Origin: Zootoca vivipara
Lineage: Eukaryota
Reading direction: 5' to 3'
Assembly: GCF_963506605.1 (NCBI RefSeq)
Contig: NC_083277.1
Location: 5,766,001-5,830,000, forward strand
Length of the DNA stretch: 64,000 bases
Shown here: positions 57,404 to 61,400 of the stretch, piece after piece
How positions within the stretch are numbered: position 1 is the first letter of the stretch
How the letters are laid out: every line of letters starts with the position of its first letter
Program-made: the position numbers

Positions 57404-58370
57404 GAATAAAACCAATTTGTTGGTAAAAATATTTCATAGAATCATAGAATTATAGTTGGAAGGGACCCGAGGGTCATCTAGCTCAACCCTCTACAATGCA
57501 TTAATACTGTTCATAGCCATCACTCCCAGGGCTCGAACCACCAACCTTCTGGTTAACAGCACTGACTATGTTCCATGCTGGGATCCCTAAATTGTGGTGG
57601 CAAATACTCAGAACAGGCGTTTCCCCTCTCCAACATCAATCAGCCAAAGAGATCTTTACCCAAAGAGTCCAGATTCCCACAACTCTCCATCGTGGCTTCC
57701 ATCTACAAAGCTCTGTGGTCTGGATCCGGGAGATTTTACTCCCCCTTGGCGAAATACGCAGTCACCTTCTTCTCCGTTGAAAGAAAGGAGGGTTCTTCAT
57801 TTGAAGGTAATTTCCCCCACATGCACAACTGCTCCCTGTTTGAAAGGGGGGGAACAATGAATAAGCCAGACCGACACATAAGCCAAGCAGGAGAAAGCTG
57901 CTGTGAAAGTCATTTATTTTATTTTATTTTATTTTAAGTCTACCAATGGTGTGGAGGCTTATGAAACATGCAGCAATTGGATTCTTACAACCGGATTCAA
58001 CTAAATAGTTGTGCTGGCAAGAGCCAGTGCAATGAGTCCTATTACTGCAAAAGTGCTATAATTTTGTTCCAGCATGGAACAAAATGTATAAATATAAATT
58101 TTCTGTTTTACAATTTACAATACTCATTTAAACAACCTTAAAATATCCTTGACTTCCCGTCTTCTCTTTCCATGGTTCGTTTTGCATATCATAAATCCCT
58201 GTATACTATAGGTAAATTAAACCTTTCAGACTTTTAGAGGACATCTGAAGGCAGCCCTGTTTAGGGAAGCTTTTAATCTTTAAGAAATTAGTGTATTCTA
58301 ATATTTCTGTTGGAAGTTGCCTAGAGTGAATGGGGAAACCCAGCCAGATGGGTGCGGTATAAATATATTA

Positions 58371-58428
<58 letters not shown>

Positions 58429-61400
58429 AACCATTCAGTATTCCATTATTACTGTTGAATTTATCTTGATGCTGCCAATGTTTTCAAGTGTACACAATCC
58501 CCCCCATATATTCAACAATCATTTCCAGTCTTCTCAGTGCAACAGTGCTTTCCCCCTCCTCCCACCTCAGTGCCCCCCAAAATCAGATGGGGGGGGGGAG
58601 CAGGAGAACCACTGCCTGCATCACTGTGCATGGGGGGGAGGAGGAAAGAGAGGGTTGTTTCTTTTTCAACTGTTTGTGTTTGTTACTCTGCTATGCATTT
58701 GTCTTCTCATATTGCAAACCACCCTATATGGCTGGGGGACGTGTCGCTACATCCAAAATCAGTTTGAAGTCCCCAGCGCGGTGATGGCTCCATAATATTC
58801 GACATGGTGATATGTCGTGAATCACGATGCGTGTGCACTCTAGTTTTTTAAAATCATGATGCGGCAAAAACCATGAAGCTGGTCATCACTTCTCTCATGA
58901 TTCCTGCTGCCCCTGTTGCTCTGTACAGTCAAACCTTGGTTCCCAAACGGCTTAGTTGCCAAACAAATCGGCTCCCAAACACCGCAAACCAGGAAGTAAG
59001 TGTTCTGGTTTGCGGACATTTTTCGGAAGCCGAACGTCCAACGCAGCTTCCGATTGAGTGCAGGAAGCTCCTGCATCCAATGGGAAGCCGTGCCTTGGTT
59101 TTTGAATGGTTTTGGAAGTCGAACGGACTCCCGGAACGAATTAAGTTCGAGAACCAAGGTACCACTGAAAATGGACCAGTTTTAGATCCCTAAGTAGCAG
59201 CAGTTGCCAGGACATTACCCTGTTCACCATCCTTATTTCAGACATTGTGATATATCGGCATATCGCAATGTTTAGCTGGTGATATATCACGAGGTTGAAA
59301 ACCAGACATTGCTCAGCCCTACCGCCCTGTGATCCTTAGAGGAAGGGTGGTTTATAAATTTAATCAATAATAGAAATAGTAGTAGCAGTAGTAGTAATAA
59401 TAATAATAATAATAATAATTCCATCAGCTAAGCAGAAAAACTTGCACTATTTGAATCGCATTCTGTGATGGGCTCTTGTATCTCCTGAGCCATCAAGCAA
59501 GTTTGGCAGCTCGGAGGGATCTGAAATGGACAAGCCTGTGCTGGGCTTCCTGGGAAATGATATACAGTATAATGAAATTAAAAGGATGTTTAAAATAACG
59601 TTTGTAAAAAAAAAAAACCCTAGAAGCTTTTCTTTTGGAAATTATAGGGACAGAACTATTCAAACTGTACACAAATTTATTCATGTATGCGACTATAGCA
59701 GCAAGAATGTTACTTGCCCCAAAATGGAAAGAGGCAGAAGTCCCATCAAAGGAAGAATGGATACAAAAACTTATGGAATATGCAGAAATGGCAAAACTTA
59801 CTGGAAGAATAAGAAATCAAGATCACAAACTTTTTATAAAAGAATGAAAATGGTCTATTGAATATTTACAACTAAAGTGTAAACAGATAAGAACATTGGC
59901 AGGATTATTGTAATAACCTGCAGTTTCATAAGAGTATATATTTAAAGATGAATAAATGAGCAAATTAAGTTAATTTGGATATGCAGAAGATATTAAAAAT
60001 AAATTTAAGGAACCGCAGAAAGAAGGGGAAGGAAGTCAAGCTTTGAAATGTCAAAATGATTGTAAAATCAGTGAAATGTATAAACCTGAAAAGTATTTAA
60101 AAACATATATGAAATGGACAAGGCTGATTCTGCAGATGGGAAAGGGGAAGTGATAACATCTTGCGGTGCCAAACGTGAACAGAAAGAGGAATATTGTCAG
60201 TTCCTGAACCCCTCTCTGCAAACACACACATCGAGCCCCTCCATCTCTTCCCACGAGTCCCTTCCCTTACCTGAGGCATCTGCCGGATTTTGCGCTCCAG
60301 CCCAAAGAAGAGACGATCCAGGTGGGTCCTCCAATGGCATCGCAGTGGCTGTGGGGGAGACGGAGGAAGCATGAATCCTATGCCAGTTTCCCTGCCAGGT
60401 GTGGCTGGACTACAGCTCCCACTGCCTTTTACCATTTGTGATGATGGCTGGGGCTGATGGGAGCTGAAGTCCAACCACAATTTGGAGAGCACCAGTTTGG
60501 CAAAGGCAAGGGAGCACTCCCAGATGCAAGGAAAAGCAAGCCACAGGCATAAGCTAAGCCGGTTTTCTCCTGCTCCGGAAAGTAGGATCTGTACCAATGG
60601 ATTTAAGTTACACAAAAGAAGATTCCGATTCGACATCAGGAAGAACTTTTCTGACAGTAAGAGAGACCTGTTCGGCAGCAGAACAGTCTCCCTCAGAAGG
60701 TGGTGGACTCTCCTTCTTGGAGACTTTTAAGCAGAGGTCCATAGAATGGTAGAATTGGAAGGGACCCTGAGGGTCATCTAGTCCAACCCCCTTCACCCAA
60801 TGTGGGGCTCGAATGCACAACCCTGAGATTAAGAGTCCCATGCTCTACTGACTGAGCTATCCCAGCTCATTTGTCATGGATGCTTCAGCTGAGATGCCTG
60901 CACTGCAGGGGGTTGGACTAGATGACCCTGGGGTTGCCTTCCAACTCTACCATTCTACGATTCCAGGTGCAAAGTGCACCAGATCCGAAAAGCAAGTATT
61001 TCAACAAGTCTTCCGGCAGGGATACTTGCTTCACAAAGGGGTTGGACTAGATGCCCCTCGGGGGTACCTTCCAACTCTACAATGGCATGATTCTGCAGTC
61101 CTCCCAGCAATGCCATTTCTCCTGTCCCGGGGTTAGTGTGGAGAGATATCTGAATGAGAAGGGAGGGCAGGAAGACAATGCAATGCAAAGCGGGAGGGAG
61201 GGAAGGAGGGGGGCTTGGAGGGCAGACGCCCTTTGCAGCTGGAGGAGCTCGGAGTGGTTTTTTTTTGGGGGGGGGGTCTTTTTCACCTCCCTCTCCCCCC
61301 CCACCTCGCAAGCAGGGCTGATTCCCAGGCACCCTCTTCTTCCCCACCCACAATTTCCCCATGCGAATGAATGGTGGGATGGGCGGGGAGGGGAGGGGGC

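What the first reader, a model, noticed from the sequence alone, without database searches (positions are those of the whole stretch)
57660..60348. G6 carries a fossil KRAB-A exon and can bypass it in frame
Seen: an intronic KRAB remnant with two in-frame stops at hallmark residues, a lost acceptor and a retained donor, while the 1562-nt finger exon is uninterrupted. The upstream linker exon is 5 nt shorter than in G1/G2 (78 vs 83), so it ends in phase 1 and joins the finger exon directly. Inference: domain loss by exon death with frame compensation, giving a functional KRAB-less ZNF. A lost intermediate exon near 59440-59520 is an alternative explanation for the phase.
Basis: partly seen in the sequence, partly recalled or inferred. 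Interest (0 to 1): 0.75.

Follow-up and report, generated by a model that had tools for sequence, protein, structure and literature searches.

The report
Zinc-finger gene with dead KRAB exon
A lizard-type zinc-finger gene has lost its repressor (KRAB) exon to decay while its DNA-binding exon stays intact and can still be read in frame by skipping the dead exon, a known kind of gene-family turnover whose function here is untested.

Summary
On the minus strand G6 has a 78-nt start-codon exon (60348-60271), a decayed KRAB-A exon (about 57775-57660) and an open 1562-nt finger exon (57063-55502). The 78-nt exon is homologous to the 83-nt exons of G1 and G2, with the same boundaries.

The in-frame bypass exists, but only from the upstream ATG at 60340. 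G1 and a Rhineura floridana relative share that ATG. The downstream ATG at 60279 ends in phase 0 and does not reach the fingers.

Fourteen of 16 fingers are canonical and the finger exon has no stop. One shared neutral rate for the KRAB and finger exons gives a joint probability of at most about 9e-4. The fingers therefore look constrained or younger.

Against function, the exon-1-like region is partly deleted and CpG-poor. A cryptic acceptor could also make a poison exon. No transcript data could be consulted.

Best reading: KRAB loss by exon decay is shown, and a functional KRAB-less protein is inferred (about 0.5). KRAB loss by degeneration is already described in mammals. Interest is modest.

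The parts
61716..61840 (-). Exon-1-like region of G6: a partial homologue of the G1 and G2 first-exon/CpG-island regions, with a candidate donor CAG|GTGAGA after 61716
   Evidence: blastn 61835-61807 against the G2 exon-1 region: 86% over 29 nt, E=4.9e-4. Alignment A3 shows a gap of about 90 columns in G6. CpG o/e is 0.20 against 0.69 (G1) and 0.62 (G2). The donor scores 8/9, and an ATG at 61764 is open to phase 1. Use as an exon is inferred.
60271..60348 (-). 78-nt start-codon ('linker') exon, bounded by CACAG| and |GTAAGG. Upstream ATG at 60340-60338, second ATG at 60279-60277, net 5-nt loss between 60289 and 60288.
   Evidence: Sequence. Alignment A1 with the 83-nt exons of G1 and G2 shows the same acceptor and donor columns. 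No Pfam family for its 23-residue peptide.
57836..57837 (-). Cryptic acceptor AG behind a pyrimidine-rich tract, 60 nt upstream of the former KRAB-A acceptor
   Evidence: Sequence. All three frames from here to the kept donor contain stops. Its use is not shown.
57660..57775 (-). KRAB-A exon remnant (116 nt): AC at 57777-57776 replaces the acceptor AG, TAA at 57738-57736, TAG at 57705-57703, donor GT kept at 57659-57658
   Evidence: DNA match to the G2 KRAB-A exon, E=6.4e-6.
55502..57063 (-). Finger exon: 75-residue pre-finger linker, 16 C2H2 units (14 canonical) and stop TAG at 55504-55502. The acceptor AG at 57065-57064 aligns with the G1 and G2 acceptors, and the exon starts in phase 1.
   Evidence: ORF 55502-57067. 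Pfam zf-C2H2 gives 14 stretches, E=3e-82. Unit listing, acceptor alignment A4.

Best explanation
G6 is a member of the same KRAB-zinc-finger subfamily as G1 and G2: start-codon exon, 127-nt KRAB-A exon in phase 0 to 1, and a single finger exon in phase 1. Its KRAB-A exon has died.

Shown:
- The KRAB-A exon carries two stops, has no AG acceptor and is 11 nt short.
- The start-codon exon has lost a net 5 nt in the G6 lineage.
- The finger exon is fully open, with 14 of 16 units canonical.

Inferred:
- The primary transcript skips the dead exon, because it has no usable acceptor, and splices 60271 directly to 57063.
- Translation starts at the family's shared upstream ATG (60340), or further upstream in the same frame.
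- The 5-nt loss places that frame in phase 1 at the exon end, so it runs into the fingers.
- The product is a protein of about 540 residues with a short domain-less N-terminus and 14 working fingers. It can bind DNA but cannot recruit a KRAB co-repressor.
- The contrast between the decayed KRAB exon and the intact fingers indicates that selection, or at least a much shorter neutral history, has preserved the array.
For: Homology and boundaries of all three exons with G1 and G2.

Phase arithmetic.

The upstream ATG at exon position 9 is shared by G1, G6 and the Rhineura floridana RefSeq models. P0003 starts at it, and P0004 reads through it in the same frame from an upstream exon. It is absent in G2.

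G1 and Rhineura have 25 codons from that ATG to the exon end, so the G6 length is the derived state.

The closest named relatives keep KRAB-A directly before the same linker. Rhineura P0003 matches the pre-finger part at 37/75, E=1e-16. Elgaria P0001 is 47% identical.

Differential decay:
- G6 keeps 12/24, 10/21 and 10/27 of the KRAB-A positions on which the other sequences agree. Intact sequences keep 18/24, 18/21 and 18/27.
- 60 of 64 zinc ligands are kept, by my count from the listing. Against 9/18 KRAB hallmark positions, Fisher p=7e-5.
- In simulation, P(no stop in the 519 codons) is 0.047 at 5% neutral divergence and about 0.001-0.002 at 10%.
- The joint probability of at least 2 stops in the KRAB part and none in the fingers, under one shared rate, peaks near 9e-4.

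G6 finger integrity (14 of 16 units) is comparable with that of the KRAB-bearing paralogues.

There is no sign of recent copying from arrays in the window: the best identity among 162 non-self blastn hits is about 69%.
Against: No transcript, junction or protein evidence could be consulted.

The exon-1-like region has a gap of about 90 columns relative to G1 and G2. Its CpG o/e is 0.20, against 0.62-0.69 in G1 and G2, which looks like a decayed promoter island.

The good-context ATG of G1 and G2 (CACCATG) is CGG in G6 in the MAFFT alignment. The remaining second ATG (60279) is out of frame with the fingers after skipping. An ATG at 61796 in the exon-1-like region is in yet another frame (my reading).

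A cryptic acceptor (57837-57836) together with the kept donor could include a 176-nt piece with stops in all frames.

The start-codon exon is no better conserved than its flanks: 34/58 columns against 46/82. The same holds between G1 and G2.

The upstream peptide is weakly conserved (33-44% identity), so it may be a leader rather than coding sequence.

A phase-1 result from a random indel has a prior of about 1 in 3.

The simulation uses present-day sequences as stand-ins for ancestors, ignores indels, and is applied to a locus picked because of its stops.
Confidence: 0.5

Rival explanations
1. G6 is an unprocessed pseudogene as a whole. The promoter, start codon and KRAB exon are gone. The finger exon is merely the last part to break, and the in-frame path from the upstream ATG is a coincidence.
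For: The exon-1-like region is partly deleted and CpG-poor. The aligned good-context ATG is lost. KRAB-A is dead. SINE-like and LINE insertions crowd the 5' region. Of 10 donor-like sites, 3 offer an ATG open to phase 1. An indel gives phase 1 about one time in three.
Against: There are no stops or frameshifts in 1557 coding nt and 60 of 64 zinc ligands are kept, while KRAB-A has lost about half of its conserved positions. The joint probability under one neutral rate is at most about 9e-4. The splice sites of both remaining exons are intact. The finger exon has the highest CpG density of the six arrays (37.9 per kb against 11.7-20.5), mostly at synonymous-prone positions. That is not what long methylated neutral decay leaves.
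Confidence: 0.3
2. The finger ORF is intact because it is young, not because it is selected. Gene conversion or a segmental copy from a paralogue outside the window refreshed the array next to an older dead 5' part.
For: G6 fingers differ in composition from the other arrays: GC3 is 0.55 against 0.38-0.49, and CpG density is two to three times higher. Conversion among finger arrays is common in such clusters (my own knowledge, not from a call).
Against: No donor is visible in the window: the best identity is about 69%. The finger-exon acceptor and the first codons align with G1 and G2 at about the same divergence as the other G6 parts. The unique pre-finger linker, which finger-to-finger conversion cannot refresh, is also open and 49% identical to the Rhineura protein.
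Confidence: 0.1
3. The finger exon is functional but is fed by a different 5' exon or promoter than the 78-nt exon, for example a TE-derived promoter or an exon beyond the window end.
For: The ancestral promoter homologue looks decayed. The window ends only 3.6 kb upstream of the 78-nt exon, and that stretch is largely LINE. A stop (TGA, 57070-57068) directly precedes the finger-exon acceptor, so some upstream exon ending in phase 1 is required.
Against: The 78-nt exon keeps both splice sites, with a donor matching 8 of 9 consensus positions, and offers the required phase. The one other non-LINE donor with an ATG open to phase 1 (61716) is also in phase with the frame of the 78-nt exon, so it can lead into that exon rather than replace it (my arithmetic).
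Confidence: 0.1

Closest known systems
Loss of KRAB or SCAN effector domains by exon sequence degeneration in mammalian C2H2-ZNF orthologues (Tadepally, Burger and Aubry 2008, PMC2443715; abstract and passages read)
   Same: An effector-domain exon stays recognisable at the DNA level in its old place in the gene while no longer encoding the domain. The finger exon persists. The gene family evolves by birth and death.
   Different: Those cases are mammalian and were found by comparing orthologues. The passages I read do not mention a compensating frame change in the upstream exon.
Human ZNF252 in the 8q24.3 cluster (Lorenz et al. 2010, PMC2865497; passages read)
   Same: [quoted passage not shown] The KRAB-less ZNF16 lies in the same KRAB-ZNF cluster.
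   Different: In human ZNF252 the finger ORF itself is truncated, so that eleven complete or degenerate finger motifs lie in the 3' UTR after the stop codon, and no transcript links KRAB-A and the fingers in frame. In G6 the finger ORF is fully open and an in-frame KRAB-skipping path exists.
KRAB-less isoforms of KRAB-ZNF genes made by alternative splicing (for example ZNF71, PMC8038441; search listing and start of abstract only)
   Same: One locus yields a finger protein without the repressor box.
   Different: There the KRAB exon is intact and optional. In G6 it is dead, so KRAB-less would be the only possible product.
Paralogues G1 and G2 in this window, and the RefSeq models of Rhineura floridana (XP_061475868, XP_061475867) and Elgaria multicarinata webbii (XP_062979024)
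   Same: Same exon plan and exon boundaries (G1, G2). Same pre-finger linker family: 49% identity by BLASTP (54% by phmmer) to Rhineura and 47% to Elgaria. Same upstream ATG (G1, Rhineura).
   Different: G1, G2 and Rhineura encode an intact KRAB-A. The Elgaria model starts inside KRAB-A, so only its last part is seen. G1, G2 and Rhineura end the start-codon exon in phase 0.

Membership tests
KRAB-C2H2 zinc-finger gene (KZNF) | Tandem array of C2H2 fingers with TGEKP-type linkers encoded in one 3' exon | tested here: met
   Pfam zf-C2H2 gives 14 stretches, E=3e-82, and zf-H2C2_2 gives E=1.2e-121. There are 16 units of 28 residues, 14 of them canonical.
KRAB-C2H2 zinc-finger gene (KZNF) | An intact KRAB-A box encoded upstream, reaching the Pfam KRAB threshold and spliceable in frame | tested here: not met
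   19.6 bits against a cutoff of 20.4, and only with X at two stops. AG is replaced by AC and there is an 11-nt gap. Any inclusion through the kept donor reads into a stop. G6 descends from a KZNF but no longer is one.
KRAB-C2H2 zinc-finger gene (KZNF) | Descent from the family: exon order, boundaries and phases shared with KRAB-bearing paralogues | tested here: met
   Alignments A1, A2 and A4 with G1 and G2. The linker matches KRAB-bearing Rhineura and Elgaria proteins.
KRAB-less (ZNF-only) poly-zinc-finger protein gene | Open finger ORF reachable from a start codon through canonical splice sites | tested here: met
   The ATG at 60340 leaves one base at the exon end. The donor is CAG|GTAAGG and the acceptor is AG at 57065-57064 in phase 1. 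This was checked by arithmetic only.
KRAB-less (ZNF-only) poly-zinc-finger protein gene | Transcription, the predicted junction and translation | not testable with these tools
   No transcript or read collection for this organism was available. Protein look-ups found no model of either G6 or G1.
Unprocessed pseudogene | Disabling lesions (stops, frameshifts, lost splice sites) spread over the coding exons | tested here: inconclusive
   The lesions are confined to KRAB-A. There are none in the 1562-nt finger exon or at the splice sites of the two other exons.
Unprocessed pseudogene | Neutral evolution of the remaining ORF | tested here: inconclusive
   Only indirect evidence. The stop-survival simulation and ligand retention argue against an equal neutral age for KRAB and fingers. 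dN/dS needs orthologous DNA, which was not available.

The most novel reading that the evidence does not exclude
The 5-nt loss in the start-codon exon was fixed because it rescued the finger array after, or together with, KRAB-A exon death. That would make it a compensatory frameshift converting a KRAB repressor into an obligate KRAB-less DNA binder, one that could compete with or shield the targets of its KRAB-bearing relatives. It would be a dated, step-by-step example of how ZNF-only genes arise from KZNFs in squamates.
Probability: 0.2. Interest if true: 0.5.

Novelty: new member of a known kind. Interest (0 to 1): 0.3.

Why it matters
KRAB-ZNF clusters evolve by rapid birth, death and domain loss. 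How a ZNF-only gene is made from a KRAB-ZNF without a frameshift is rarely visible step by step. A 127-nt KRAB-A exon cannot be skipped in frame.

If G6 is expressed, it shows one concrete route: the exon dies and a small indel in the upstream exon restores the frame. It would also give a natural KRAB-less counterpart with which to test what KRAB contributes in squamates. Whether lizard KRAB domains bind KAP1 has not been tested (Liu et al. 2014, PMC3971581, passage read).

If G6 is not expressed, it is an ordinary decaying cluster member.

Tried and rejected
DNA self-search. G6 pieces found only themselves in the window at E<=1e-3. Homology appeared only when G2 pieces were used as queries with short words.

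Protein look-ups for an annotated G6 model or a close orthologue:
- The G6 finger-exon translation, residues 1-85, gave 29 word-sharing candidates and none at E<=0.001.
- The same search for G1 served as a control and gave 22 candidates and none. The absence for G6 therefore says nothing about its annotation.
- P0003 residues 1-67 found only itself.
- Only proteins near the query length were searched. The 'longer' and 'shorter' options were not run.

The representative search with the 75-residue pre-finger part gave 3 hits. One of them (P0002, a 1516-residue repeat protein) is unrelated and was dropped.

One protein alignment failed because I gave G2 in the wrong frame. I did not resend it. 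I relied on the DNA alignment of the same junction, made in the same turn.

I also considered and rejected that the remnant could be included productively. Any exon ending at the kept donor in phase 1 must read the KRAB frame through the TAG, and the other frames also hit stops.

A local 3-sequence KRAB profile over six-frame pieces found only the G1 and G2 KRAB-A exons. No KRAB-A of this type was seen for G3-G5. That profile is weak, and the G6 remnant is split by its stops.

Comparing conservation of the start-codon exon with its flanks was uninformative, even between G1 and G2.

Not done:
- The spliced model was never joined, translated as one piece or searched. Exons were handled one by one.
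- No structure, complex or atlas job was run, because none bears on the question.
- The bacterial and archaeal genome collection was not used because it is irrelevant.
These include the lizard gene-model tables of PMC3971581 and the additional files of PMC2443715 and PMC2865497, and they may hold comparable cases.
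Full report
**What is in the window.** Six long zinc-finger ORFs are present.
- G1: 3191-5317 (+)
- G2: 13969-15114 (+)
- G3: 23595-25760 (+)
- G4: 35448-38117 (+)
- G5: 45338-48007 (+)
- G6: 55502-57067 (-)

The window has no N. Nothing in it was taken for human. The nearest named relatives of G6 are RefSeq proteins of two squamates.

**Gene plan of the subfamily.** G1 and G2 share one plan.
- A GC- and CpG-rich first-exon region lies at about 704-1030 in G1 and 9350-9750 in G2.
- An 83-nt exon holds the start codon: 1762-1844 in G1 and 11154-11236 in G2.
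- A 127-nt KRAB-A exon starts in phase 0 and ends in phase 1: 2653-2779 in G1 and 12305-12431 in G2. Pfam KRAB scores are 49.4 and 67.5 bits.
- The finger exon starts in phase 1, at 3267 in G1 and 14039 in G2.
- These three coding exons close the frame by themselves. No intermediate exon is required.

**G6 has the same three parts in the same order on the minus strand.**
- The 78-nt exon 60348-60271 aligns with the 83-nt exons. The acceptor (CACAG|) and the donor (CAG|GTAAGG) fall in the same columns, with one 5-column gap between 60289 and 60288.
- The KRAB-A exon of G2, with flanks, matches 57727-57646 at 72% over 82 nt, E=6.4e-6.
- The finger-exon acceptor aligns with those of G1 and G2.
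- A short match (61835-61807, E=4.9e-4) and alignment A3 mark a partial homologue of the first-exon region.

**The KRAB-A exon is dead.**
- In the KRAB frame there are stops at 57738-57736 (TAA) and 57705-57703 (TAG).
- In alignment A6 the TAA stands where G1 and G2 have W, and the TAG where G2 and the Rhineura protein have Y.
- Where G1 and G2 have the acceptor AG, G6 has AC (57777-57776) behind a kept pyrimidine tract. MAFFT places an 11-nt gap just inside the exon, giving 116 nt instead of 127. An ungapped reading lacks AG as well.
- The donor is kept (G|GTAAAG).
- With X at the stops, the Pfam KRAB score is 19.6 bits, E=6.9e-4, below the cutoff of 20.4.
- G6 keeps 12/24, 10/21 and 10/27 of the KRAB-A positions on which two of the intact sequences agree. 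Each intact sequence keeps 18/24, 18/21 or 18/27.
- No reading through this piece is productive. An exon ending at the kept donor in phase 1 reads the KRAB frame and meets the stops, and the other two frames also contain stops.
- A cryptic AG at 57837-57836, with a good pyrimidine tract, could create such a non-productive exon. Whether it is used is unknown.

**The bypass.**
- The finger exon runs from 57063 to the TAG at 55504-55502 (1562 nt) and is open throughout. A TGA at 57070-57068 sits just before its acceptor.
- Its first two bases complete a codon begun in the previous exon.
- In the 78-nt exon, the ATG at 60340 opens a frame of 23 codons that leaves one base (G at 60271).
- That base and the first two bases of the finger exon form one glycine codon, so the frame continues into the fingers.
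- This was established by arithmetic on the separate exons.
- The exon also holds a second ATG (60279). It ends in phase 0 and would not reach the fingers after skipping.

**Is the upstream ATG meaningful?**
- G1 has an ATG at the same exon position (position 9). There it is in frame with the second, good-context ATG (CACCATG), and both end in phase 0. G2 lacks it, but its frame is open across the exon.
- A search of 1.84 billion representative proteins with the 75-residue pre-finger part of G6 gave three hits.
- P0003 is Rhineura floridana XP_061475868. It is 54% identical by phmmer, and 37/75 by BLASTP with E=1e-16.
- P0001 is Elgaria multicarinata webbii XP_062979024, 47% identical.
- The third hit is an unrelated repeat protein.
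- P0003 begins with a 25-residue peptide that aligns with the G1 and G6 peptides from the upstream ATG. An intact KRAB-A and the same linker follow it. Its isoform P0004 enters the same frame from an upstream exon.
- The Elgaria model starts inside KRAB-A.
- So the frame of the upstream ATG is the family's coding frame in current gene models. Twenty-five codons to the exon end is the common state, and the G6 state (23 codons plus one base) is derived.
- These are predicted models, and the peptide is weakly conserved (33-44% identity). Use of that ATG remains an inference.
- The aligned position of the G1 and G2 good-context ATG is CGG in G6. An alternative alignment would equate it with the ATG at 60279. 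Either way that start leads to phase 0.

**Are the fingers constrained?**
- Sixteen 28-residue units are present and 14 are canonical. My regular expression counted 13; the first unit is canonical but has E at the position before the first Cys. Pfam counts 14 stretches.
- Four of 64 zinc ligands are missing: one in the unit starting at residue 244 and three in the last unit.
- Against 9 of 18 KRAB positions kept, this gives Fisher p=7e-5.
- Simulated neutral substitution of the 519 codons leaves no stop with probability 0.30 at 2% divergence, 0.047 at 5% and about 0.001-0.002 at 10%.
- The probability of at least two stops in the 38 aligned KRAB codons together with none in the fingers, under one shared divergence, peaks near 9e-4.
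- The Rhineura protein is close to G6 in the linker. The G2 linker does not align to it at all, and only the G2 finger part does. Yet its KRAB-A is closer to G2 (24/38) than to G6 (14/38). G6 KRAB-A is therefore the outlier.
- These tests have limits. They use present-day sequences as ancestral stand-ins, ignore indels, and are applied to a locus chosen for its stops.
- They also cannot separate selection from a younger age of the array. The best identity to any other array in the window is about 69% among 162 non-self hits, so no local donor is visible.

**Points against function.**
- The exon-1-like region has a gap of about 90 columns. Its CpG o/e is 0.20, with 5 CpG in 385 nt, against 0.69 in G1 and 0.62 in G2.
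- SINE-like repeats and a LINE ORF with a reverse-transcriptase domain (62028-63998, Pfam RVT_1 E=2.7e-41) fill the upstream region.
- Out-of-frame ATGs precede or follow the useful one.
- Among 10 donor-like sites upstream of the finger exon, 3 have an ATG open to phase 1. One of those lies inside the LINE. An in-frame path is therefore not rare by chance.
- No expression data were available. Protein look-ups found no model of either G6 or the control G1, so the missing annotation carries no weight.

**Comparison with what is known.**
- Loss of KRAB or SCAN domains in C2H2-ZNF orthologues by sequence degeneration of the exon is described for mammals in Tadepally et al. 2008 (PMC2443715; abstract and passages).
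- Human ZNF252 has an out-of-frame KRAB-A and a KRAB-B broken by a stop (Lorenz et al. 2010, PMC2865497; passages).
- KRAB-less splice isoforms of intact genes are known, for example ZNF71 (PMC8038441; listing and start of abstract only).
- Liu et al. 2014 catalogue 122 KRAB, 240 SCAN-KRAB and 723 ZNF-only models in Anolis (PMC3971581; passages).
- My three searches did not turn up a described case of an upstream-exon indel restoring the frame after KRAB-A death. These were word searches of open-access text only, and supplements were closed.

**Verdict.**
- Exon death is shown.
- The in-frame bypass is real on paper and rests on an ATG shared by G1 and the Rhineura models.
- 'Functional KRAB-less ZNF' is the best single reading at about 0.5.
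- 'Compensation' as a selected event stands at about 0.2.
- The kind of event is known, so novelty and interest are modest.

Noticed in passing
window 55502-57063 (G6 finger exon), compared with the finger ORFs of G1-G5: The G6 array is unusually CpG-rich: 37.9 CpG per kb and o/e 0.63, against 11.7-20.5 per kb in the other five. Of its 59 CpG, 52 lie at codon positions 2-3 or 3|1. GC3 is 0.55 against 0.38-0.49. This may reflect germline hypomethylation, biased conversion or a young age. It is unexplained.
   Followed up: partly
window 54028-55309: A 26-nt direct repeat (25/26 identical) at 54028-54053 and 55284-55309 flanks an insert of about 1.25 kb. The insert ends in an A-rich tail on the minus strand and is CpG-rich. 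It looks like a recent retrotransposed insertion with target-site duplication, about 200 nt after the G6 stop.
   Followed up: partly
window 690-1100, 9335-9745, 61640-62024: The first-exon regions of G1 and G2 are CpG-island-like (GC 0.59-0.61, o/e 0.62-0.69). The homologous G6 stretch is not (GC 0.525, o/e 0.20) and lacks about 90 aligned columns.
   Followed up: partly
window 35448-38117 and 45338-48007 (also 23595-25760): G4 and G5 are near-identical 889-residue finger ORFs 9890 nt apart, and their GC-rich upstream blocks are duplicated too. G3 is a shorter relative at 721 residues. This is a recent tandem duplication of a second ZNF subfamily. No KRAB-A of the G1/G2 type was detected for it in the window.
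   Followed up: no
window 62028-63998 (-) and 52419-53186 (-): A LINE ORF of 657 residues runs off the window end and carries a reverse-transcriptase domain (Pfam RVT_1, E=2.7e-41). A 256-residue fragment shares its C-terminal part. It resembles RTE/BovB elements from my recollection only, not from a call.
   Followed up: partly
window 13969-15114 (G2 finger exon): The G2 array is short: a 381-residue ORF with 8 canonical units by my regular expression. It ends in a degenerate tail, unlike G1, which has 20 canonical units. G2 may itself be truncated.
   Followed up: no
window about 8890-9280 and about 10930-11060: Two palindromic elements lie upstream of and inside G2. One is a GC-rich stretch bounded by inverted ends. 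The other is a short element with inverted arms of about 50 nt, and similar motifs occur just upstream of the G6 78-nt exon. They look like MITE-type repeats, which is my reading and was not tested.
   Followed up: no
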